Shown one piece after another: positions 15,260-52,242 of a DNA stretch of 64,000 nt; the stretch's first letter is position 1; each line of letters starts with the position of its first letter. Position numbers and translations under genes: made by a program. This DNA comes from Naegleria gruberi. Lineage: Eukaryota. A model generated the notes under the pieces. That model made no database searches. It was not told the origin of the DNA and saw only the letters and a program-made list of their open reading frames with translations. The stretch lies in the NCBI GenBank assembly GCA_000004985.1, contig GG738882.1. One strand, given 5' to 3'.

Positions 15260-16051
15260 TTTTTTTTATGTATTGTTTGATTGATGTTTGGCACTTTGAG
15301 GTTTGTTTTGGTAATTTAAAAGCCTCCAAGGGGAAACTAAATGTGATATTATTTGATTGATTTGATGAACTGGAGTTCAGTTTACTTCAGTTTATTTTCA
15401 GTTAAACTTTTGTTTTTTTTACTTTGAGAAATTAAGATTGAGAAAATGATGCAACTTTTATTTCATCTGATGAAGAAGTTGTTTAGAATAGTTTGAGGAA
15501 TGAAGTGTGTGAGGAAGTAATGAGGAATAGGTAAGAAAGTTGAAACCTTTCGAATAAAATGTAAGAAGGATTAAAAGGCAGTAAATGATAGAATAGTTAA
15601 TGCGTTTTTTTCCCCAGACATGCAACTTTTGAACACCATTTCTTTCAATTAACCTATTAATAATACTTTGAGCAGATTACTTTTAGTATCTTTCCTAATT
15701 TAGAAATTTAAATAATAATATTTTAATTAAAAATTCAAATTTAAAACACCATTTAACTCAACTTATTCAGCATTAAGTTTTATACAATGAATAAATCGCT
15801 AGTTTCACAAACTTGTCAAAAAAAATTATTAGAAACTCTTCAAACAAGTTTCGAGTAGACAGCTTTCAAAATAAATGAGAACTTTCACTCTTTCCAACTA
15901 GCCTTACTAGTAATTGGTCTGAGAACTTGTTAGCTCGAACTCTAAACTTTCACATTTCAAAATCATTTAAGAGTTGGTTGACCAACAGTTTTTTTGCCGA
16001 TAAAAGAGTTCACAATATAGATCATTTAAAAAATTAGCGTACACAATTGAT

Positions 16052-17615
16052 ATGCGTTCAGTGTTATTCTTTGTATTGTTGCTTGTCTTACTGACAAGTT
16101 GCTGTGTCAAAAGCCAAATTTAATTGTCAAGCCATCAAGAACTACTGGAACAGCTCCTTTAGCAGTACATTTTGATGCTACTGCTACTACACTCCCAGGA
16201 AAAGATGCATTCCGTGATATTACCTATTCTTTTGATTTTGGAGATGTCAACTCTGGCAATTGGTCAACTGACGGAAAATCAAAGAATACTCAAATAGGTG
16301 GACCAATTTCTGCTCATGTTTATGATAATGCTGGAACATACACTGTTTGGATTCGTGCCAGTGCTCCTGGTTACTACTATTCAGATGTCACTTTAACCAA
16401 TCCAAATGTTGACTTTGCTGGAAACAAAACTGTTTGTGTTTCAACGAGTGGAAATTATAATTCATGTCCGAGTGGTGCTCTCAAACAGAAAACCATCCCA
16501 ACAGGAACTGAATGGTCAGGTAAAAGATGGTTATTAAGAAGAGGCGAAACTTTTGACGAAATTGCAATTCAGGATGGAAATTCGAATGTGCAAGTGGGTG
16601 CATTTGGATCAGCAAGTCAACTGCCAATCGTTGCCAAAGTTGGAGTTGGATCTTGGCGTCCAGATACTCCTGATTTTCCAGTTGACATTTCAATTATGGA
16701 CCTGTCAATTCCAGGTGGCGTTTTAGATTCTCTTGGCAAGAGACATTTATTCTATAGAAATAACATTACTGGATGTGATAATGCACTTTGTGTTGGTTTT
16801 GGCGAACCTTATTATTGGATATTTGATGATCCTTATAGAAGAATTCCAATTTCTTCATTTTACAATCCTCAAGAATTCTTCTACGTCGACAATATTGCAG
16901 TTGGTAATACAGCAACTACACAGGGAAATTTCTTTGGGTCCATTGCTAAATCTGCATTTATGGGAAACTATGCTAAGTATACGAAATTTCACAATATGAG
17001 ATGCACCCAATGTTACAAAACTTTCTTTGGACATAATCATTTTGCTGGGGTTTCAATTGATGGAGGATACCACTCTTTTAAAATGCATTCAGGTGCAAGG
17101 CTACCTTGTCAACTAATGGTTGGATTACTCAATTTAATGTCATTTCGAATAACATTTTGGGAAGCTTGCAGGATAACAATGTTTGGGGTTCAATGATTTC
17201 TCCTCAAAATGGTGCATATCCAGAACGTATTACTGATATAATTATTGAAAATAATCAATATATTATTCATAGAAATGATCAATATGATTTGATCTTGTCA
17301 GCAAGAAATGTCACTTACAGAGCTAATACTAGAAGTGATGGTAAATCAGCTGCTGTCATGTTTGGACCTCATGGAGAAGCTCTTCCAGCTTATTGGTTAG
17401 GACCGTATTACACTACTAATACTCCTGTTGTAAATGTGACAGCTTCAACTTCAAATGTCACTCCTATTAAAAGTAGTCAACCAACAGCAGCGAATAGTGG
17501 TGTGAAAGGTAGTGGAAGTACTTCAAGTGAAAGAGTTGGAGAATCGAATGGAAATTTTGCTTGTTCCGTAATGTTATTGCTGTTGATAAGTTTAATTTTC
17601 ATTATCCAGTTTTAA
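16052..17615 (+). CDS. secreted PKD-domain / parallel beta-helix protein with GPI-anchor-like C-terminus; reading frame broken twice (frameshifted CDS, possible pseudogene or assembly indels)
   Basis: ATG at 16052 encodes the signal peptide MRSVLFFVLLLVLLTSCC but stops at 16121. The long ORF 16099..17196 runs in another frame and carries a PKD domain (TAPLAVHFDATAT...YSFDFGD). A third frame, 17082..17615, continues the beta-helix-like repeats and ends in the hydrophobic tail SNGNFACSVMLLLLISLIFIIQF. The breaks fall near A-run 16109-16112 and T/A run 17077-17083. Confidence 0.55.
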
Positions 17616-17630
17616 GTCAATTGATTCAAT

Positions 17631-18542
17631 TCAATTATAAACTTTAATATATTTACTATTTCCTCCACATAAAAGTAAATGACCATTTCTTTTATCAATT
17701 CTCAAATGAGATCCATAAACTAAATATTCCTTAATTAGTTCGACATTATTTTCAGTCATTTGAAATACACTTAATGAGCTAGGTCCCAAAATTATCATAT
17801 TCGAATCATCAAATGTGAGACATGAAATAAAATCATCGCTTTCTATCTGTTTCTTTTCTATAATTTTTGAAAAGTCTTCATTAAATTTCAATATATGTAC
17901 AATTCCCAAATTATTATCCGAAACACATAAACACGAAAACTCATAATTAAATTTGAAATCAGCAATTTCCAAAGGAAAATCATAAATTAATGTCGAAATG
18001 ACTTGTCCATTTGCTGAATTTAGTATAGAAAGCATTTTCTTATCTGAATTTACAACAAATAGAAACGAATTCATATTCGAAACGTCAACTATTCTTCCTA
18101 CTTTTTTAACTTCCCAAACTGGATTGATCAATTCATTAGATTCACTCAATAACACCCTATCCAATGAATAACAGCATACAGATTGATCATCATTCGAAAT
18201 AAACAAATTACAAATTCCATTTTTTCTTTCCTCAATTAAAAACTCGAAAAATTCCACAAATTTAAATTTTCGAATTAATTTTCTGGTTTTCATATTGAGA
18301 AATTTCAATTTTTTACCATATTTTCCAATAATTAAATTTAGCGTGTAGCAAATTTCAAATTCTTTAATTTTCATTCCATAAAATTGATCTTGCAATTGGC
18401 ATTGATAGGAAAATTTTGTTTCGATTGGTTTCGTCAACTTTTCCATGAATTTTTCTTTCATAGACGATTCACCATTTTGCCAAATCCTTCTAGATTCCGA
18501 TAATAATTCGCAGCAACAAACAACCTTCTCACTTTTTGACAT
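17631..18542 (-). CDS. hypothetical protein (303 aa)
   Basis: Complete ATG ORF. No recognisable motifs. Confidence 0.4.
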   Translation of the reverse strand: MSKSEKVVCCCELLSESRRIWQNGESSMKEKFMEKLTKPIETKFSYQCQLQDQFYGMKIKEFEICYTLNLIIGKYGKKLKFLNMKTRKLIRKFKFVEFFEFLIEERKNGICNLFISNDDQSVCCYSLDRVLLSESNELINPVWEVKKVGRIVDVSNMNSFLFVVNSDKKMLSILNSANGQVISTLIYDFPLEIADFKFNYEFSCLCVSDNNLGIVHILKFNEDFSKIIEKKQIESDDFISCLTFDDSNMIILGPSSLSVFQMTENNVELIKEYLVYGSHLRIDKRNGHLLLCGGNSKYIKVYN

Positions 18543-33270: not shown

Positions 33271-35725
33271 TTATATTGAACTATTGGAAGAAGAAGAGGA
33301 AGATATGCTGATGGAAATATCCACTGGTGTGACTGGGAAATTATCAGAATCTTCAGTAGGTTCTTCATATTGGAGCATGAATCTAACAAATGTGTCCTTC
33401 AAGATCATATTGGTTACAACCTTTTGAAGATCATCCAGCAAGTCAACTTGGCCAAAACCTTCGATAATTCTTTTAACTATGACTTCTCGTTCCTGCTTTG
33501 AAATATTCAAAGGGGTAGGTGAGTCTTCCTTCAAATATTGGGCAATAATTTCATTTTGCTTTTTAGATCTTTCCGAGGTTCTCTTGATATTCTTATACTT
33601 GAGCACATCTTCCAAAAAGTTGAAATTCTCAGCAGAAAATTCACTTTCACAGAATTGCTTAATGAAAAGCTTGTTAAATAATTCAAGAATAACTTACTCT
33701 AAATAATTCCTTTGAACTCTTTTTTGACATTATCTTTTCAAATTCGAAAGATTGAATGGTTTCCTGTTGCTGTTTGATACTGGCCATTAATTCATGTTGC
33801 TCTTTCATATTTCTTGCAACAATTACATAGACTTCAATCATTTCTTCATTCTGAATGATGGTTACTCTGGTAGATGATAATGAAACAGGAAGTTTGTTAC
33901 CAAGGGCTGTAGACAATAATGCATCCTTTCTCGAATTGGTATTATACGAAAGAGATTCAAATAAGCCAAGAAATTGATCCGTCTCAGCAGCAAGATCACT
34001 AACAAGTAAATAATTTGAAATTGCCAAGGTATTCTTCTTGAGAATTTTCGTTTCAAATATAGTATTGAAGGTGGCAATTTCTCCATTTTTACAATCCACA
34101 GTAAAGATGAAATCAGAGATGGCATTCATGATTACTCTTGCATGCTGTTCAGAAAGGGATGTTTTCTCTAGTAACTCTTGAATTCTTTCATTCTCAGATA
34201 CAATGACTGTTTGGGATTCGTCCAATGTTTCCAACATGTTATTAACATCATCAGTCAATAATCCCAGCTCATCCTTACCCATACACTTGACTCTCTTTTT
34301 GAAATTATTGCTAATGGTGATTTCTCTAACTGATTTGGCAAAATTCATCACTCTCTTAATAACAACAACCTCCAAAAAGACCATTATTGCAAATGAGAGC
34401 AGTAAAATCATTGCTGTCATTACTGCCCAAGTAATGATGAAAGAATTGGTTCCCAAAACAAATACTCTTCTTGCAAAGTCTGTTCTAATGATAATACTGT
34501 CATTTCGTGAAATGTCATAATATTTCTGAAATGTTGCCATTCTAGATCCATAAGCATTTCCATCATCTTCAATATCTGCACAATATCTATTCTCGGTTAT
34601 AGGATAAAGATTATTTTGTTGATCAACAAAAAGTGGTTGATTGAGCTGAGCCATATTGTCTTTCCATTTTGTTACTGAACTTGAACCATTGATTAGTGTT
34701 GTTTTCCAATCCCCAACTCTTTCAGTTAAATAAGTATTGATCCATTCGTGATTTTGTTTGAAAATGTATGAGCTGCTCTCTGGAGCACTTTCTCCACTAA
34801 GAGCAATTGCTAACAAATACCTATGTCTCCAATATTCCATATTAAAGAGGGTAATACAGAGTTGAACTCTATTTGCCATATCTTGCTTGTACTCTGCAAG
34901 ATCAAATCTAGCAAACACAATCAGGCCATATGTTTTTGTATTGTAATCATAATTATCCTGTATTGGCATGCCACTCATAAGAATAATATATGAAAGCAGC
35001 TCTGTTTCTGTCATGTTGGCCATTATAGCTTGCTTCTTTTCATATGAGTTCACTAAATTTGGTAAATCTTTAAATGGAGAGAAGAAGCCGACATGTCTTG
35101 TTGAAGGTACATCAACATTCCTCAATAAACGAGCTCCTAGTTCATTTCTCGACAAATCATTGAACTCTTCTGGTAGATTATCCAAACTTATTCCCCTAAA
35201 ACATGCTCTAAAAGCGAGCAAAGTTCCATCCTTCTTATATAATATTGCAAAATTCAATTTGGAAGCCAGTTGATAATTACAATTCAAATAAGTATCCATA
35301 TATTTCTCAGTAAATGATGAGTTTGTAGCCATAACAGCATCAACAGTATCATTAAATGCTCCATATTCGCTAAGCTTTGATGTCAATGACTGAAAATCAT
35401 CAAAATAGGCCCTTGTAGTTCTCTTTGCAGCTTCTACAGAATAAGTCTGCTCAACCGAATTAAACGAAAGTAAAAAGGCAGTCACCAACACAGCCAAACA
35501 AATAGCCATCAATAACAGAAATAACACTCCAAGCACTGTCATTGTTTTAAATCTAATACTACTCAATAAAACAACATCTCTCCTATTGGATTTTAAATTC
35601 AAAGTAGATGGTGGTCTCAACTTGACAATTCGAGGACCTGTTTCCTTAGATCGTTTCATATGATATTCTCTGTAGGCTTTGTCATCTTGCCAGGGAGACT
35701 CTGAAGGAGATTGTGATTGATACAT
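33271..35725 (-). CDS. receptor-like RGS protein: TM - large extracytoplasmic domain - TM - HAMP - PAS-like - RGS; 2 exons with a 40-nt intron inside the RGS box
   Basis: Exons 33698..35725 and 33271..33657. TM1 TVLGVLFLLLMAICLAVLVTAFLL, TM2 FIITWAVMTAMILLLSFAIMVFLEVVVI. HAMP match RVMNFAKSVREITISNNFKKRVKCMGKDELGLLTDDVNNMLETL. RGS box SFEFEKIMSKKSSKELFR|QFCESEFSAENFNFLEDVLKYK. Confidence 0.7.
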
Positions 35726-36326
35726 TTTCTTTAATTATTATGTAATTTACTATCTCGCTTGCTGATGGCATCGGAAAACATCAAACTCTATCATTTCGAA
35801 TGTACACTTGTTTCATGATTAATACAATTCAATATAAACAACAATATTTGTACAATATTAATATTAATATTGATGAAATTCTGTTTGTTTTCATCAATTA
35901 ATTAAATTCTCAGAGAACATTTTTTTTCTAATTTTCAAATCAAATCACCTCTGATCTATTTAAATACTATGTGATTATTGCTATTGTATCAATTCAAAGT
36001 CTCTAATAAGAGAAAGCTCACCTTAGAGGGAATTTTAAATTTTTATATTTTTTTCAAATTTAAAAAAAAGATCATCACGAGAAAATTCTTCAAACCTTTT
36101 TGATTGTTTTTGGTTTTCTACAAAGCTCAAAATTGGATTCATCATCAGAGTATAATTGCTATTGGGCGAGAATATATTTTATGCTTGGTTGTGTGATTTA
36201 TTGGTAAAATTCATCATCCCGAACATTAAAATAGAACGTTGAAAATTATAAATATAATAACATCAATCATCACGATAATAATATCTATTTAAAAAGTACG
36301 ACAATAATATCAACAAAAATCAAAGA

Positions 36327-38061: not shown

Positions 38062-40687
38062 TTAATCAGTACCAACTAGTTGTCTTTCCACTACTTGTTT
38101 GTAAAGACCTCCCTTTTGAAGCAGATTGAAATGCTCTCCTTGTTCCACAACTGAACCTTCCTCAATGACACAAACCTTATTGGCCTTTATCACTGTGGCA
38201 AGTTTGTGAGCTATAACGATAACAGTCCTTCCATTCATTAATGAATTGAGAGCTTGTTGAACTTGGCTGTCATATTGTACTTCTAAAGAATGAGAATATT
38301 CGTCCAAAATTAAAATCTTCGGATCCTTCAAAAGGATTCTAGCAATGGCGATTCTTTGACGTTCAGAGGCAGAAAGTCTGACTCCTCTTTCTCCAATAAT
38401 AGTATCATATCCATCTTTGAAATTAGAAATAAATTCATGAACGTTTGCCTTCTTGGATGCTTCCATAACTTGCTCGTCTGTTGGAGCTTCATCACCAGTC
38501 CATCCGTAACAAATATTTTCACGAATTGAGGCACTAAACATGGCAGGATCCTGAGTAAGGAGACCAATGTTCTTTCTCAACCAAACAGGATCAATTTGAG
38601 TAAGTGGAACACCATCCAATGTAATTTGTCCATCATTTGGATCATAGAATCTTTGTAAGAGTGAGACAATGGTGGTCTTTCCTTGTCCTGGTCTACCAAC
38701 CAAAGCCAAAATACTTGATGGTGACATTTCAAGGTTAATCTTATTGAGTACTGAGTGTTCGGTTCTTGAAGGATAGGCAAATGAAACATCGTGCAAAACA
38801 ATGTGACCATTCAATTTTGGAAGTTCTCTAGTATCGGATTCCATAACGTTTGGATTACGTCTTTCAATGGCTGGAATACGTTGAAGTAAGTTGTAAACTC
38901 TAACAGTAGCCTCCAAAGCTCTAAACAATTCAACCAGCAATCCACTCAAGACACCAAAGCTGGCAGCAACCAACAAGGTATACATGATGAAACTAATAAG
39001 AGATCCAACAGTTATTTCACCATCCACAACAAGTCTTCCACCAAACCACAAAACGAGAATAATACTAGCATTACCAGCAAACATCATACCACCTGAAAAG
39101 ATACCATTAGCAAATGAGAATTTTCTTGCCAATGAGAGAGTCAAATCAATAGCAGCACTGTACAAGCTAATATGCTTGGTTTCCTTTGCAAAACTACGAA
39201 CAGTTCTCAAATTGGAGAAGGACTCTTCAGCAACATCAGTTGAATTGGCCAAAGCATCTTGTGTTCTCCTTGTGATATTCTTAATATATTTGGCATAAAT
39301 TAAAGAAATAAAAACGAGTGGAGGTATGACAGCAAGCATGATCAGAGTCAATTTCCAAGATATTATCAATAGGAAAACAATTCCACCAATTAATTGAGCC
39401 ACATAACGTAAAAACATTGAAAGATTCACTGTAACGGCATTTTCCAATGATTTTGTATCTGAACTCAATCTATTCAACAATTCTCCAGTTTTAGTGATAT
39501 CAAAAAATCCAACTTCTTGAACAATGATGGAATTGAAAAGATCCTTTCTGAGACGGGCAACAGCACGTTCTCCAGCATATGTAAAACTATTATATTTGTA
39601 AAATATATAAATGAAATTGATTAGAAGAAACATACCAAAAGTTTCTCAATGCAGTTGTAAGGCCAATACCAGCCACAACACCTAGTATAATGAGAGCCAT
39701 TTGATTAATATATTCCTTTCCTGTAGTTCCTGCAGGGATGGTATTAATAATCTCGCCAACATAAATTGGTAGGAATAGGCTCAAACCAGTACTAACAATC
39801 AAAAATATAATTCCGAAAAAGACGAGTGGTGTTTGTCTAAATCCTAATTTCATCAACCACATAAATTGAGTAAAACTAATTCTTGGAAAGCTCTTGAAGA
39901 GTTTAGCAATGCCAGTAGCACTAACTGGATTTTCATCTATAGCATTTGGCTTTAAATAATCATTATACGTATCATCAATATGGTTATCGTAGTATAACAA
40001 TTCTCGATCGTAATCATCCTCCATGGAAATTTTGGTAGTGTTTGTAATTTCAACTTCAACATCATCACCATCTTCGAGGTTAACATTTTTCATTTCCTTG
40101 TGTTCATTGTGATTTGTTAATTTGACTTTACGATGTTCATCATAGTCTTTTTCATTTTCCTCTTCTTCCTCGCTCAGTGATGGTTCATGATGATGGTTCA
40201 GGTCAGAACCGAGACTATTACTACTGGAAGTAGTATTAGCATTTCCATTTGTAGAAGTCAGGGAACCCTTAGAGACCAGAATTTGCTTTCTCTTCGGGAG
40301 TGGTGGAGTTTCCAAATCTTGAGCCTCTTCTTCCTTATTAACATTTCCAAAACGAACACGTAACTTGGATCTATCATCTTTAAAAGCAGGTGTATTTTCT
40401 ATTGGTTCTTCATCATCCGAATCATTATTCTTCTTTGGTGTTATTGTCGAATCAACATCATGAGCAGCAGCCGTTGTTGATGGTGATGATGATTTCGATC
40501 CGTTAATTGTAGGTGATTTTTCCTTCTTTGTATGATGAGAGTCTTCATCTTGTTCTTCTTCATGATGATGATGATGCGAGGAAGAAAGTACAATATCATC
40601 CAACTCTTCCTCTAAATCTTCGTCTTCCTCATCTTCCAAAAGTCTCGATTGAGAACGCGTTTTTAACGAGCCAAGTAGTGATGGCAT
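38062..40687 (-). CDS. ABC transporter, B-family half transporter (TMD-NBD) with long acidic/His-rich N-terminal extension; 2 exons
   Basis: Exons 39636..40687 and 38062..39586, with a 49-nt intron and GTATGT donor. Walker A GRPGQGKTT, ABC signature LSASERQRIAIAR, Walker B ILILDE. Six TM helices precede the NBD. Confidence 0.85.
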
Positions 40688-40994
40688 TTTTTTAAAGTTT
40701 TTTTTATTTTTTTTAACGTTCGCAAAATTTGTTCTGATGAGAGAAGTGATGGAAACATTTATGGAAAATTGAACAATCTGGAAGGTGATGTTGTTATGGA
40801 AGTATAGTTGTTGGAAGAGGACTGGAAGATATTTGATATTTTGAATGGCTCTAAACAGTTTTTGTTGAACGATTGTTTTGCTTGTTGTTGTCCAGATGAT
40901 AATCTATTCACTTTAAATGGAATACGATTTTTAATAAGTTAGTATAGGTTCAATGGTTGTTGTACATTTTCAAAAAGGGATAATATCTCAATAT

Positions 40995-42409: not shown

Positions 42410-43156
<747 letters not shown>

Positions 43157-50005: not shown

Positions 50006-50512
50006 TTAACACCTCAGTAAAGATTCAACAATTGTATCAAGCTCTGAGATTGACTTGATGATGATTTCATTTTTGGTGGTCAAGATCAAAGGTTTGAATG
50101 TGAAATTTTGTAAGCAAGAAATAAGGTTACAGATCCAATCGCGAACAATTTCAACATCTCCACAACAATTCAAATCATTAAGAATTCCTGTTATTTTCTT
50201 CTTGGATTTTAATTGAATTGAAAATAAGAATGCAAAGATCTGAAGGAACATATTTCCCAAAGTTAGCATCTCTTCTTTCATCAACTCTGGTCTGTATTCT
50301 TTACAGTTATTAATGTCGGCTAGTACAATAGTTTGTGGATCATGAATTCCGCACATTCTCTCTATTAATAAATTAAGTTGAGATTTTTCATTGTTAGAAG
50401 AAGATCTTGTCATTAAATTTCTTAATGCCAAGTCATGGTGAAGTAAATTCAACTCCTTAATTAAATAATGATTAGCTCTTAAGCATCCGTCAACGACATA
50501 AAATAGAATCAT
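50006..50512 (-). CDS. hypothetical protein (168 aa); possibly a 3' part of the upstream gene
   Basis: ATG ORF immediately downstream of the 521-aa ORF on the same strand. No motifs recognised. Confidence 0.3.
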   Translation of the reverse strand: MILFYVVDGCLRANHYLIKELNLLHHDLALRNLMTRSSSNNEKSQLNLLIERMCGIHDPQTIVLADINNCKEYRPELMKEEMLTLGNMFLQIFAFLFSIQLKSKKKITGILNDLNCCGDVEIVRDWICNLISCLQNFTFKPLILTTKNEIIIKSISELDTIVESLLRC

Positions 50513-50634
50513 CAGTTGAGAGTTGGAATCCGTGTGCTTAAGAACTAAATTTGATTCATTCAGAGGAAGTAGCTTTTCAGAAATAGTGACACTTGTTTGA
50601 TAACTTGCATGTGGTGCAGTTACAACACCAAAAA

Positions 50635-52200
50635 TTACATATGGAATACTGATATCTGCAAGAAAATGAAAGTTAACTCTAACATTTTAGCGTCATAATT
50701 GGATGAAGGTGATTCTGAATTGAATGTGTTCAAATCAAAACAATGGCCATGGCTGCCAAATTTTTGTAAACAATTGTCATCCGAATCTTCTTCATCGTCA
50801 CTGTCATCATATAGTTGGTTAATATTACTGCTAACGCTCTTTGTATTGGTGATTTCTAATACTTGAACCAATATCTCTCCATCATACTTCATGTAACCAA
50901 CCTCAATAGGATTTGAGTACATAGGAGGATTGGTAGTGGAATTAAATTCAAATGAATCACCTTGTTTATAAACCATAAAAGGAATGTTTCTATCAGTAGC
51001 ATCCCCTGCAAGTAGAACTGTCTTTTTAACAATAAAATATGGATATGTTTTTTGTAAATAAACTTCTAAATCCTTTTCTTCGGCAACTGATAAGCATTTG
51101 AGCTTAATACGTGAAGTATAAGAAACAGGAAGTGTAAAAAATTTGTCAACAACTGATTGGGATCTTAAAGTGATAGGAGTTGAACATAAAGCGGCAATTG
51201 AACAGTTATCACTTGGTTGGTAGTTTGTCAGGGAAGCCATACGTATACATTCGTCTATTTCTGACATAATGGAGAATAAATCTTCCTTAATAAAAATGTT
51301 AAGCAATTTAGAATATGAAAGGCTATAATAAAGCCCATGCAAAGTGTTTTCTACTTGGTGAAATCTTGGCTTCATCTTCAGAATAACAAGCCCTCCACTG
51401 GTATCGATTAGAAACAGTTTTACCACTGCTTGTTTTTTAGATTCATCATCTATTTTTTTCTGCGTCATTTTAGTTGCAATATCTTTCAAAACAGCCCTTC
51501 CCTCCAGAATGATTTTAACAGTGTCTTTGTGAGCACAAAGGAACTCCTCTGCATTGGAAGCATTAATGTTACGTTTTTCAAATTCACCTATCGCAAAATA
51601 ATGATCTAGTTGTGCATTAGTACGCATAATTACAAAGTCAGAATGCATTCTACTAGTGTCTTCAACCCATTTCTTGTTCATAATATTTAGAGACAGTTTC
51701 AAACTTTGAGAAGCCAACTTTTCACCACTCTTGAAAAACAAACTATTTCTATTTTCCAATGATAAATCAGAAAAAATGTGATAACGGTTGAAAATCATTA
51801 AGAAATAATCCTTGAATGTCATTTCAGTAATTTCAGTTTTAGATTCTATCATGTTGTGGAGTTTAAATAATGGAAGAAATAAGCAGGAGGAAGAGAAGCG
51901 CAACAAATCAAACTGGTGTTTAAGAGGTGTTTTTTCTAATTTTTGGGCTAATTGTTGAGATTCATTGTATTCCTTATCCAAAAACAAGTAAAGTTTCTCA
52001 TCTTTTGGAAGATTATTATGCTTTGTCCATTTAATTCCAAAAGATGTAAGGAAACTACATAAATACCCCTTTAAAGTCGATGGTAGACTTGAATTTCTTT
52101 TAAATATTTGGTGTGCCACACTGTTTGGCTCTATTTCATCCATTGAAAATGGAAACTGCAAGTTTCGAAAAGTCATTCCAAAATGTTCTAGAATTCCCAT
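50635..52200 (-). CDS. hypothetical protein (521 aa)
   Basis: Long ATG ORF. Contains a weak vWA-like LFLIDTSGG stretch but no confident family assignment. Confidence 0.4.
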   Translation of the reverse strand: MGILEHFGMTFRNLQFPFSMDEIEPNSVAHQIFKRNSSLPSTLKGYLCSFLTSFGIKWTKHNNLPKDEKLYLFLDKEYNESQQLAQKLEKTPLKHQFDLLRFSSSCLFLPLFKLHNMIESKTEITEMTFKDYFLMIFNRYHIFSDLSLENRNSLFFKSGEKLASQSLKLSLNIMNKKWVEDTSRMHSDFVIMRTNAQLDHYFAIGEFEKRNINASNAEEFLCAHKDTVKIILEGRAVLKDIATKMTQKKIDDESKKQAVVKLFLIDTSGGLVILKMKPRFHQVENTLHGLYYSLSYSKLLNIFIKEDLFSIMSEIDECIRMASLTNYQPSDNCSIAALCSTPITLRSQSVVDKFFTLPVSYTSRIKLKCLSVAEEKDLEVYLQKTYPYFIVKKTVLLAGDATDRNIPFMVYKQGDSFEFNSTTNPPMYSNPIEVGYMKYDGEILVQVLEITNTKSVSSNINQLYDDSDDEEDSDDNCLQKFGSHGHCFDLNTFNSESPSSNYDAKMLELTFIFLQISVFHM

Positions 52201-52242
52201 AAACCCTTTGAAACTATTGGTGAGAAAACATACATGTCTTAC

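What the first reader, a model, noticed from the sequence alone, without database searches (positions are those of the whole stretch)
16052..17615. Secreted PKD / beta-helix GPI-type protein with two frame breaks at homopolymers
A convincing signal peptide (ATG 16052, MRSVLFFVLLLVLLTSCC) is out of frame with the long ORF that starts 47 nt downstream. That ORF (16099..17196) carries a PKD domain and has no in-frame ATG for about 200 codons. It overlaps a third frame (17082..17615) that continues beta-helix-like repeats (NNILGSLQDNNVWGS…IIENNQYII) and ends in a GPI-anchor-like tail. Both junctions lie at A/T runs (16109-16112 and 17077-17083). Possible explanations are homopolymer indel errors in the assembly, a recently inactivated pseudogene, or, less likely, programmed frameshifting. 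The protein is bacterial-adhesin or polysaccharide-lyase-like, so it is also an HGT candidate.
Basis: partly seen in the sequence, partly recalled or inferred. Interest (0 to 1): 0.5.

Follow-up and report, generated by a model that had tools for sequence, protein, structure and literature searches.

The report
Broken bacterial-origin surface gene in Naegleria
This is a Naegleria gruberi gene of bacterial origin for a cell-surface, sugar-polymer-binding protein; it looks recently broken by frame-shifting lesions, and the public gene model hides the damage behind two invented introns, so it is an annotation correction and not a new mechanism.

Summary
The three-frame layout is real. An ATG with a signal peptide lies in one frame (16052-16123). 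A PKD domain plus beta-helix lies in a second frame (to 17094). The rest of the helix, a Ser/Thr-rich stalk and a GPI-type hydrophobic tail lie in a third (17100-17615).

The window is Naegleria gruberi NEG-M. The locus is NAEGRDRAFT_70155 (XP_002674740.1), whose deposited model I reproduced exactly as join(15520..15530, 16062..16976, 17093..17615).

Its 116-nt "intron" is in-frame coding sequence holding seven family-conserved residues, and it does not look like the real 41-79 nt introns nearby.

Break 2 is not at the T/A run. It lies at 17095-17099, where N. gruberi is 28 nt (3n+1) shorter than its sister orthologue and lacks a conserved loop motif. Break 1 can only be placed within 16055-16120.

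The assembly is Sanger, and 40.5 kb of other ORFs with 650 homopolymer runs show no breaks. There is no in-frame slippery site and no downstream RNA structure.

Best reading: a recently inactivated pseudogene, or null allele, of an old bacterial transfer. Bacterial relatives sit in exopolysaccharide gene clusters. No reads or transcripts were available, so sequencing error is not formally excluded. Interest is low to moderate.

The parts
15520..15530 (+). First exon of the deposited model XP_002674740.1 (ATGAGGAATAG, giving 'MRN' plus AG). Probably a gene-finder contrivance to supply a start codon.
   Evidence: The regex search found it. The spliced join including this exon translates exactly to P0001.
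15531..16061 (+). The deposited model's 531-nt 'intron 1' (GTAAGA...TTCAG). It swallows the in-situ ATG at 16052. Real or artefact is undecided; it is 7-13 times longer than the real introns in this window.
   Evidence: real introns are 41-79 nt with GTAAGT/GTATGT.
16052..16123 (+). In-situ start codon and signal-peptide reading MRSVLFFVLLLVLLTSCCVKSQI*, one nucleotide out of frame with the gene body. Break 1 (a -1 type shift) lies somewhere in 16055-16120.
   Evidence: Hydropathy is 2.82, similar to the orthologue's signal peptide at 2.78. The distance from the ATG to the PSRT motif is 80 nt, against 72 nt in the orthologue.
16117..16365 (+). PKD domain (frame 1).
   Evidence: Pfam PF00801, E = 2e-7, 31.3 bits against a cut-off of 23.5, residues 23-105 of the translation from 16051.
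16399..17094 (+). N-terminal two-thirds of the right-handed beta-helix (frame 1). It ends at the conserved ...GGYHSFKMHSG.
16977..17092 (+). The deposited model's 116-nt 'intron 2' (GTATAC...TTCAG). It is in fact in-frame coding sequence (YTKFHNMRCTQCYKTFFGHNHFAGVSIDGGYHSFKMHSG), holding 7 of the 65 family columns conserved at 85% or more (H317, R320, H331, N332, G336, K347, H349 in P0002 numbering).
   Evidence: GC is 34.5% against 16-28% for real introns, and the 5' splice site lacks the +5 G and +6 T of all real introns here.
17095..17099 (+). Break 2, where frame 1 changes to frame 0 (-1 type). The site is 28 nt (3n+1) shorter than the sister orthologue, and the family's G-L-x-x-Y-x-D loop motif is missing.
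17100..17411 (+). C-terminal third of the beta-helix (frame 0), from ATLSTNGW to GPYY.
   Evidence: The conserved N380, G383, P397, E404, E412, N414, R436 and N438 are all retained.
17412..17555 (+). Ser/Thr-rich stalk (48 aa, 38% S+T) ending in small residues (ESNGN) that could serve as the GPI omega site. This stretch is absent from the bacterial homologues.
17556..17615 (+). C-terminal hydrophobic tail FACSVMLLLLISLIFIIQF plus the stop codon. It looks like a GPI-attachment signal.
   Evidence: mean hydropathy 2.67. The orthologue P0002 has an equivalent tail (2.96).

Best explanation
The locus is NAEGRDRAFT_70155 of Naegleria gruberi NEG-M. It descends from a bacterial gene taken up by a eukaryotic ancestor long ago.

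The bacterial gene encodes a PKD domain followed by a right-handed parallel beta-helix. This is the fold of polysaccharide lyases, epimerases and hydrolases, and the bacterial gene sits in Wzx/Wzy exopolysaccharide clusters.

In the eukaryotic lineage it gained a signal peptide, a Ser/Thr stalk and a GPI-type tail. The intact product would be a cell-surface or secreted enzyme, or binder, for bacterial polysaccharides (inferred).

In the sequenced strain the gene is disrupted. A 3n+1 deletion removes a conserved loop and shifts the frame at 17095-17099; it measures about 28 nt relative to the sister orthologue. A second -1 type lesion separates the start codon and signal peptide from the body, within 16055-16120.

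Everything else is still pristine. So this is a very recent unitary pseudogene, or a null allele captured in the consensus.

The deposited 482-aa protein is an artefact of a gene finder bridging the lesions with a 531-nt and a 116-nt GT-AG 'intron'.

Shown: the frames, the homology, the fold, the positions of the breaks and the structure of the deposited model. Inferred: that the lesions are biological, and what the protein does.
For: 1. Identity of the locus. The join(15520..15530, 16062..16976, 17093..17615) translates exactly to XP_002674740.1. The NEG-M genome was Sanger-sequenced (PMC9928731 Table 1).

2. Break 2.
- Frame-1 homology to the eukaryotic orthologue and to the bacterial proteins ends at 17094. 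Frame-0 homology starts at 17100.
- This segment is 36-44 residues long in all but two of 46 homologues (33 in the distant P0044 and P0046). In N. gruberi it is about 31, and the G-L-x-x-Y-x-D motif is lost.
- L001 has 36 nt between the two homology blocks and the window has 8, a difference of 28 = 3n+1.

3. The 116-nt 'intron'.
- It encodes 38 in-frame codons with 7 family-conserved residues.
- It starts GTATAC and is 34.5% GC. Seven real introns in the window are 41-79 nt, start GTAAGT or GTATGT, and are 16-28% GC.

4. Assembly quality. The 35 other long ORFs total 40,548 nt and contain 650 homopolymer runs of 4 or more, with no unexplained frame break. Most close or overlapping same-strand ORF pairs are joined by canonical short introns.

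5. No frameshifting signals. There is no in-frame slippery heptamer, and the downstream folds have z = -0.36 and +1.45.

6. Single copy. This is the only N. gruberi hit in the protein search.

7. Origin and residence.
- N. gruberi and P0002 are sisters in 100 of 100 NJ bootstraps, at 60% identity. The next sequences out are from bacterial or unresolved metagenomic contigs.
- Relative synonymous codon usage (RSCU) correlates with host genes at 0.92, and GC3 is 0.21-0.23.
- The flanking genes are eukaryotic (C2, ABC transporter with intron, polyubiquitin, RGS).

8. Function.
- The homologues lie next to Wzy, Wzx, glycosyltransferase and Bac_transf genes in L002, L005 and L006.
Against: - Apart from the two breaks the gene looks fully functional. 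There is no in-frame stop in 381 + 177 codons, 60 of 65 conserved columns are retained, and codon usage is host-like. That also fits an intact gene with two sequence errors, or a null allele beside an intact one.
- No reads, second assembly or transcripts could be examined.
- The 28-nt figure is relative to a 60%-identical sister, not to the ancestral allele, and this loop varies in length across the family (33-44 residues).
- Break 1 might not be a lesion at all if the annotated 11-nt exon and 531-nt intron are real. Its donor GTAAGA matches 5 of 6 consensus positions, and frame 1 also reads as a plausible signal peptide.
- The codon-usage test could not place break 1.
Confidence: 0.66

Rival explanations
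1. The gene is intact in the organism, and the two frame breaks are base-calling or assembly errors in the reference.
For: - The rest of the gene is pristine: 60 of 65 conserved columns kept, no stops, host-like codon usage.
- Both shifts are of the same -1 type, as missing single bases would give.
- An AAAA run lies inside the break-1 zone.
Against: - The assembly is Sanger, not a homopolymer-prone platform.
- Break 2 lies in GCAAG, not in a run. It coincides with a shortfall of about 9 codons that removes a conserved motif, which a single-base miscall cannot produce.
- All 650 homopolymer runs in 40.5 kb of other ORFs are unbroken. That puts an upper bound of about 0.5% per run, so two errors in one 1.5-kb gene would be expected in under 1% of genes (my estimate).
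Confidence: 0.15
2. The deposited gene model is right, or becomes right in the cell. Both GT-AG segments are spliced out, giving a 482-aa protein with a shortened beta-helix. In effect the frameshift is rescued by intronization.
For: - Both segments have GT...AG ends, and the spliced product is an open 482-codon frame.
- The alternative N-terminus MRNSVILCIVACLTDKLLC is signal-peptide-like.
- The donor of intron 1, GTAAGA, is close to the consensus.
Against: - Intron 2 begins GTATAC. All seven real introns found here have G at +5 and T at +6.
- It is 116 nt and 34.5% GC, against 41-79 nt and 16-28% GC.
- It is an open in-frame reading of 38 codons that is highly similar to the orthologues. It carries H317, R320, H331, N332, G336, K347 and H349, conserved in 88-100% of the family.
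- Together with the missing loop, about two rungs of the helix would be lost.
- Intron 1 is 531 nt and contains an ATG-CGT (M-R) exactly where the model's own M-R would sit. That is more simply explained as the ancestral start.
Confidence: 0.07
3. Programmed ribosomal frameshifting (two -1 events), or transcriptional slippage, yields a full-length protein.
For: - Both shifts go in the same direction.
- The heptamers AAATTTA (16116) and TTTAAAA (17077) exist near the breaks.
Against: - Both heptamers are out of register with the incoming frame.
- A shift at 17077-17083 would discard the conserved K and H that are read in frame 1 downstream of it.
- The true break-2 site, GCAAG, is not slippery.
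- The 100 nt downstream of each site fold no better than shuffles, with z = -0.36 and +1.45.
- The orthologue P0002 and all bacterial homologues are single ORFs.
- Runs of 4 A are too short for transcriptional slippage (established knowledge).
Confidence: 0.02

Closest known systems
XP_002674740.1 / EFC41996.1 / UniProt D2VMJ2, NAEGRDRAFT_70155, 'predicted protein [Naegleria gruberi]'
   Same: It is the same locus. The spliced join of window coordinates 15520..15530, 16062..16976 and 17093..17615 translates to it exactly.
   Different: The deposited protein lacks the in-situ signal peptide reading. It also lacks 38 conserved beta-helix residues, because two contrived introns bridge the frame breaks. 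The record does not flag the locus as disrupted.
P0002, an uninterrupted 546-aa orthologue on contig JBMUHC010001225.1 of GCA_049309705.1 (an unidentified eukaryote, 43-51% GC)
   Same: - 60% identical, and sister in 100 of 100 NJ bootstraps.
- Same architecture: signal peptide, PKD, beta-helix, Ser/Pro-rich stalk and hydrophobic C-tail.
   Different: - It is a single open frame.
- It has 28 more nucleotides at break 2 and 4 more residues at the PKD/helix boundary.
- There is no synteny with the window.
Bacterial PKD + beta-helix proteins in exopolysaccharide clusters (e.g. KatS3mg122_0623 of a Caldimonas MAG, P0011)
   Same: - 42-47% identical over the PKD and the whole helix.
- All strongly conserved residues are shared.
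   Different: - They have no Ser/Thr stalk and no hydrophobic C-tail.
- They lie beside Wzx, Wzy, glycosyltransferase and priming-transferase genes.
- They are uncharacterised: the helix has no Pfam or NCBIfam model.
Mannuronan C-5 epimerases / alginate epimerase-lyases (AlgE4 A-module 2PYG, 8JA4) and other pectin-lyase-fold enzymes (phage tailspikes, GH28/GH87/GH110, PL6, RbmB)
   Different: - Only 9-16% sequence identity.
- The epimerase motif DPH(D/E), recalled from the literature, is absent from all 61 family members.
- No assignment to a specific CAZy family is justified.

Membership tests
PKD domain (Pfam PF00801) | Match to the Pfam model above the gathering score | tested here: met
   31.3 bits against a cut-off of 23.5, E = 2e-7, residues 23-105 of the frame-1 translation. 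The orthologue P0002 scores 36.9 bits.
Right-handed parallel beta-helix (pectin lyase-like fold) | Three-dimensional fold of stacked beta-rungs, superimposable on solved members | tested here: met
Right-handed parallel beta-helix (pectin lyase-like fold) | Sequence match to Pfam Beta_helix (PF13229) or a related model | tested here: not met
   No Pfam or NCBIfam model other than PKD hits the window translations, P0002, P0011 or P0030 at the thresholds used.
Mannuronan C-5 epimerase (AlgE/AlgG type) | Catalytic motif YG(F/I)DPH(D/E) (recalled from the literature) | tested here: not met
   None of the 61 family members contains DPH[DE]. Identity to 2PYG and 8JA4 is 12-13%.
GPI-anchored surface protein | N-terminal signal peptide, plus a C-terminal hydrophobic segment preceded by small omega-site residues, with no cytoplasmic tail | tested here: inconclusive
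   The sequence pattern is present...ESNGN followed by FACSVMLLLLISLIFIIQF-stop. No dedicated GPI predictor was available and there are no biochemical data. The signal peptide is out of frame with the body.
Spliceosomal intron of N. gruberi (for 16977..17092) | GTAAGT/GTATGT donor, short AT-rich non-coding body, YAG acceptor | tested here: not met
   The donor is GTATAC, the length is 116 nt and GC is 34.5%. It is open in frame and encodes conserved residues. Seven real introns in the window are 41-79 nt and 16-28% GC with GTAAGT/GTATGT donors.
Spliceosomal intron of N. gruberi (for 15531..16061) | GTAAGT/GTATGT donor, short AT-rich non-coding body, YAG acceptor | tested here: inconclusive
   The donor GTAAGA matches 5 of 6 positions, the acceptor is TTCAG and GC is 27.9%. 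But it is 531 nt long and contains the in-situ ATG. No transcript data were available.
Programmed -1 ribosomal frameshift site | Slippery heptamer X XXY YYZ in the incoming frame | tested here: not met
   The only heptamers (16116 AAATTTA and 17077 TTTAAAA) are out of register with the incoming frame.
Programmed -1 ribosomal frameshift site | Stable downstream stem-loop or pseudoknot | tested here: not met
   Folding z-scores are -0.36 and +1.45 against shuffles.
Unitary pseudogene | A frame-disrupting lesion relative to intact orthologues, and no intact paralogue | tested here: met
   Two frame changes relative to P0002 and to the bacterial homologues. This is the only N. gruberi hit among 64 family members.
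Unitary pseudogene | The lesion is present in the organism's DNA (not an assembly error) and is fixed or homozygous | not testable with these tools
   No reads, second assembly or other N. gruberi strain could be accessed. The look-up of the deposited protein in the assembly collection found nothing.
Bacterium-to-eukaryote horizontal gene transfer | The eukaryotic copies nest among or next to bacterial sequences, the gene is absent from other eukaryotes, and it is integrated in a host chromosome | tested here: met
   - 62 of 64 hits are bacterial or metagenomic. The two eukaryotic copies are sisters at 100/100.
- The outgroup contig checked (L007) is bacterial in its gene content.
- The window's flanking genes are eukaryotic and contain introns, and codon usage is host-like.
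- Caveat: this is an NJ tree only, and most hits have no taxonomic label.

The most novel reading that the evidence does not exclude
The frameshift-bearing stretch 16977-17092 really is spliced out in vivo. That would be a newly 'intronized' piece of coding sequence that rescues the reading frame after the deletion at 17095-17099. The amoeba would then make a GPI-anchored beta-helix protein shortened by about two rungs and lacking the conserved H/R/N/K/H residues, perhaps kept as a binder and no longer an enzyme.
Probability: 0.05. Interest if true: 0.6.

Novelty: new member of a known kind. Interest (0 to 1): 0.25.

Why it matters
- **Annotation.** XP_002674740.1 / D2VMJ2 is a chimeric artefact. 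It lacks 38 conserved residues and its probable signal peptide, and it should be re-annotated as a disrupted gene. Anyone using it for orthology, HGT catalogues or structure prediction gets a wrong protein.
- **Biology.** This is a clean example of a bacterial polysaccharide-active beta-helix gene that a eukaryotic lineage domesticated, adding a signal peptide, a stalk and a GPI-type tail. It then appears to have been lost very recently in an axenically grown laboratory strain of a bacterivorous amoeba.
- **The family itself.** The underlying bacterial family is a recurrent but unnamed component of Wzx/Wzy exopolysaccharide clusters. No Pfam or NCBIfam model covers its catalytic-looking domain.
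- **Scope.** None of this is mechanistically new.

Tried and rejected
1. Homopolymer error at 17077-17083. Rejected: the conserved K-M-H-S-G is read in the same frame downstream of the run.
2. Tiny or canonical introns bridging the breaks. The only GT..AG candidates near break 2 are 7 nt long. Those near break 1 (10-58 nt) would delete the signal peptide.
3. A high indel error rate in the window. I surveyed all close or overlapping same-strand ORF pairs. The ABC-transporter pair that looked like a second frameshift is a 49-nt GTATGT...ATAG intron. Most other pairs have canonical introns.
4. A codon-usage (RSCU) likelihood test to place break 1. Not decisive: frame 1 scored 0.66 and frame 2 scored -0.06 over 18 codons, against a null SD of 3.9.
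5. Nucleotide alignment with L001 to pinpoint the indels. The sequences are too diverged for anything beyond the 28-nt length difference.
6. Synteny between the window and L001. None found.
7. Naming the organism of L001 through its PIN_4 neighbour. This gave only unnamed metagenomic relatives. One lies on a 558-kb contig whose fragmented eukaryotic domain calls show it is a eukaryote.
8. Look-up of the deposited protein in the assembly collection, to find other N. gruberi contigs. Nothing on record.
9. Literature search for the locus identifiers. No paper in the held library mentions them. The N. gruberi genome paper itself is not in the library.
10. Sequence search of PDB with the family profile. 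Only the PKD domain matched, plus a weak hit to the GH136 lacto-N-biosidase helix at E = 2.7e-4.
11. The first NJ attempt, using Biopython's distance calculator, timed out. I redid it with numpy.
Full report
**What is in the sequence**

- ATG 16052 opens MRSVLFFVLLLVLLTSCCVKSQI and stops at 16121-16123.
- A second frame is open from 16051 to 17196.
- A third frame is open from 17082 to 17615.

With the window's base composition, open stretches of 381 and 177 codons have chance probabilities of 5e-13 and 2e-6. The second frame carries a PKD domain above Pfam's threshold (31.3 bits against 23.5). Its first Met is at residue 216. The third frame ends in a 48-residue stalk that is 38% Ser/Thr, then ...ESNGN, then a 19-residue hydrophobic tail running to the stop codon. 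That layout is what a GPI-attachment signal looks like.

**Where the window comes from**

The window is eukaryotic: 33% GC, with densely packed genes. They include a C2-domain protein, an ABC transporter, polyubiquitin and an RGS protein, and they contain short GT-AG introns.

The best database hit to a repaired translation is 'predicted protein [Naegleria gruberi]'. Its identifiers are XP_002674740.1, EFC41996.1, NAEGRDRAFT_70155 and UniProt D2VMJ2.

I reconstructed that gene model from the window. The join(15520..15530, 16062..16976, 17093..17615) translates to the deposited 482-aa protein without a single difference. So the window is the NEG-M reference at this locus, and the deposited model was built around the same two frame breaks.

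That genome was Sanger-sequenced (PMC9928731, Table 1).

**The deposited introns**

The model's second 'intron' (16977-17092, 116 nt) is not a credible intron.
- It begins GTATAC and is 34.5% GC.
- It is an open continuation of the upstream frame, encoding YTKFHNMRCTQCYKTFFGHNHFAGVSIDGGYHSFKMHSG.
- That peptide aligns residue for residue with the intact orthologue and with bacterial homologues.
- It contains seven of the 65 columns conserved in at least 85% of the family: H317, R320, H331, N332, G336, K347 and H349.

Seven real introns in the same window are 41-79 nt, start GTAAGT or GTATGT, and are 16-28% GC.

The model's first 'intron' (15531-16061) is 531 nt. It joins an 11-nt exon (ATGAGGAATAG) to the body and swallows the in-situ ATG at 16052. 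Its donor, GTAAGA, is acceptable, so I cannot exclude it.

The in-situ ATG-CGT (M-R) sits exactly where the model's own M-R would be, one nucleotide out of register. It also lies at a distance from the mature N-terminus (80 nt to PSRT) that matches the orthologue's signal peptide (72 nt). That is most simply explained as the ancestral start codon displaced by a one-base lesion.

**Where the breaks are**

- tblastn with the orthologue P0002 and two bacterial proteins shows frame-1 homology running to ...HSFKMHSG, ending at 17094.
- Frame-0 homology begins at ATLSTNGW, starting at 17100.
- The TTTTAAAA run (17076-17083) is read through in frame 1. The conserved K (17080-82) and H (17086-88) lie in or after it.
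- So the break is in GCAAG (17095-17099), which is not a homopolymer.

In a 47-sequence alignment, the segment from DGGYHS to NVISNN is 36-44 residues in all but two of 46 homologues (33 in the distant P0044 and P0046). In N. gruberi it is about 31. The motif G-L-x-x-Y-x-D, present in nearly all homologues, is missing. At the DNA level the orthologue has 36 nt between the two homology blocks and the window has 8. The difference of 28 nt is of the form 3n+1. A single deletion of that class would explain both the missing motif and the frameshift.

*Break 1.* This can only be bracketed to 16055-16120.
- Both frames read as hydrophobic leaders.
- A synonymous-codon test slightly prefers frame 1 from about 16058, but well within noise.
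- The Q of CQKPNL matches the orthologue's AQTPSL. That weakly places the break upstream of the AAAA run.

**Error, pseudogene or recoding**

Against sequencing error:
- The platform is Sanger.
- Break 2 is outside any run and is tied to a multi-codon shortfall.
- The 35 other long ORFs of the window (40,548 nt) hold 650 homopolymer runs of 4 or more, 168 of 5 or more, and 34 of 6 or more, with no unexplained break.
- I checked every close or overlapping same-strand ORF pair. The one that looked like a second frameshift, the ABC transporter at 39.6 kb, is a canonical 49-nt intron. Most others have canonical introns.

Against programmed frameshifting:
- The only X XXY YYZ heptamers nearby are out of register.
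- The real break-2 site is not slippery.
- The downstream 100 nt fold no better than shuffles, with z = -0.36 and +1.45.
- All homologues are single ORFs.

What keeps error, or a heterozygous null allele, alive is that the gene is otherwise immaculate. It retains 60 of 65 conserved columns, has no in-frame stops, and has host-like codon usage. If the lesions are real they are very recent.

My probabilities are: real lesion (pseudogene or null allele) about 0.66, sequence error about 0.15, annotated splicing about 0.07, recoding about 0.02. The remainder is for mixtures, for example a real 5' intron together with a real deletion at break 2.

**What the protein is**

An AlphaFold2 model of the intact orthologue, built with a 58-row alignment that includes the window's two segments, is confident: pLDDT 86.6 and pTM 0.84. 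Only the leader, stalk and tail are disordered.

- After those come phage tailspikes, GH87/GH28/GH110 hydrolases, NosD, and PL6 and RbmB lyases, all at 9-16% identity.

No Pfam or NCBIfam model covers this roughly 340-residue helix. A profile search of PDB sequences finds only the PKD domain, plus a weak hit to a GH136 helix. The epimerase DPH(D/E) motif is absent from all 61 members. So I do not file it under any specific enzyme family.

Three of the four bacterial loci with usable context place the gene inside Wzx/Wzy-type exopolysaccharide clusters. Neighbours include Wzy_C, Polysacc_synt, glycosyltransferases, Bac_transf and Asn synthase (L002, L005 and L006). The fourth is next to a GH3 gene.

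The conserved residues on the helix are mostly basic or His (R161, R238, H317, R320, K347, H349, R436). My inference is a secreted enzyme that cuts or modifies an acidic exopolysaccharide. In the amoeba it would be tethered to the cell surface.

**Origin**

Of 64 family members found, only two are eukaryotic: the N. gruberi locus and P0002.

P0002 lies on a 6.8-kb contig of GCA_049309705.1, which is 43-51% GC. A close relative of its PIN_4 neighbour sits on a 558-kb contig whose gene calls are fragmented RPC5, WD40, Ras and DEAD pieces. That pattern indicates an intron-bearing eukaryote.

The two eukaryotic proteins are 60% identical and are sisters in 100 of 100 NJ bootstraps. The next sequences out are metagenomic, and the one with readable context is bacterial. 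Both eukaryotic copies, and none of the bacterial ones, have the stalk and hydrophobic tail.

In N. gruberi the gene's synonymous codon usage correlates with host genes at 0.92, against a host ORF mean of 0.85. Its GC3 is 0.21-0.23.

This supports an old bacterium-to-eukaryote transfer, followed by domestication. It rules out contamination and a recent arrival. No N. fowleri or N. lovaniensis protein appeared among the hits, so the gene is patchy even within the genus. I did not search those genomes at the DNA level.

**Verdict**

The 'at homopolymers' detail is wrong for break 2 and unproven for break 1.

The most likely reading is a freshly disrupted, single-copy, HGT-derived surface beta-helix gene whose public protein record is a gene-finder artefact. 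That is useful for annotation and as a small case study of gain and then loss of a foreign gene. It involves no new mechanism, so interest is about 0.25.

Noticed in passing
window 16384-16400 (PKD/beta-helix boundary): N. gruberi is 4 residues shorter here than P0002 and the bacterial homologues (DVTLT----NPNV). It also has L at a column that is V in every other family member (V117). This may be a second, in-frame sign of decay, or just lineage variation.
   Followed up: partly
L001 335-1750 (-): The contig carrying the intact orthologue has, 1.3 kb away, a second beta-helix gene (Pfam Beta_helix PF13229, E = 5.9e-9). It has its own Ser/Thr stretch and hydrophobic C-tail. This may be another bacterial-type surface beta-helix protein in that eukaryote.
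   Followed up: partly
L002, L005, L006 (bacterial loci): The bacterial PKD + beta-helix family recurs inside Wzx/Wzy exopolysaccharide clusters, yet its roughly 340-residue helix has no Pfam or NCBIfam model. It is an unnamed, probably enzymatic, accessory component of EPS clusters.
   Followed up: partly
window 33274-35734 (-): Two adjoining ORFs, probably one gene split by a short GTAAGT intron, combine weak (below Pfam cut-off) CHASE4 and HAMP matches with a significant C-terminal RGS domain. That would be an unusual receptor-like RGS architecture for a eukaryote.
   Followed up: no
window 38062-40903 (-): An ABC transporter whose two ORFs overlap by 53 nt looked like a second frameshift. 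It is actually interrupted by a canonical 49-nt intron (39635-39587, GTATGT...ATAG). It served as the control for what real introns look like here.
   Followed up: yes
window 50009-50686 and 50638-52242 (-): These overlapping same-strand open frames have no canonical intron between them. They are most simply two tandem genes (stop near 50635, next ATG at 50512), but a further frame break was not excluded.
   Followed up: partly
window 42467-43156 (+): A polyubiquitin gene with three ubiquitin repeats (Pfam E = 4.6e-97). It confirms the eukaryotic chromosomal context.
   Followed up: no
window 17615-17631: The focal gene and the convergent 303-aa ORF on the minus strand (17631-18542, no Pfam hit) end only 15 nt apart. 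That leaves almost no 3' untranslated space between them.
   Followed up: no
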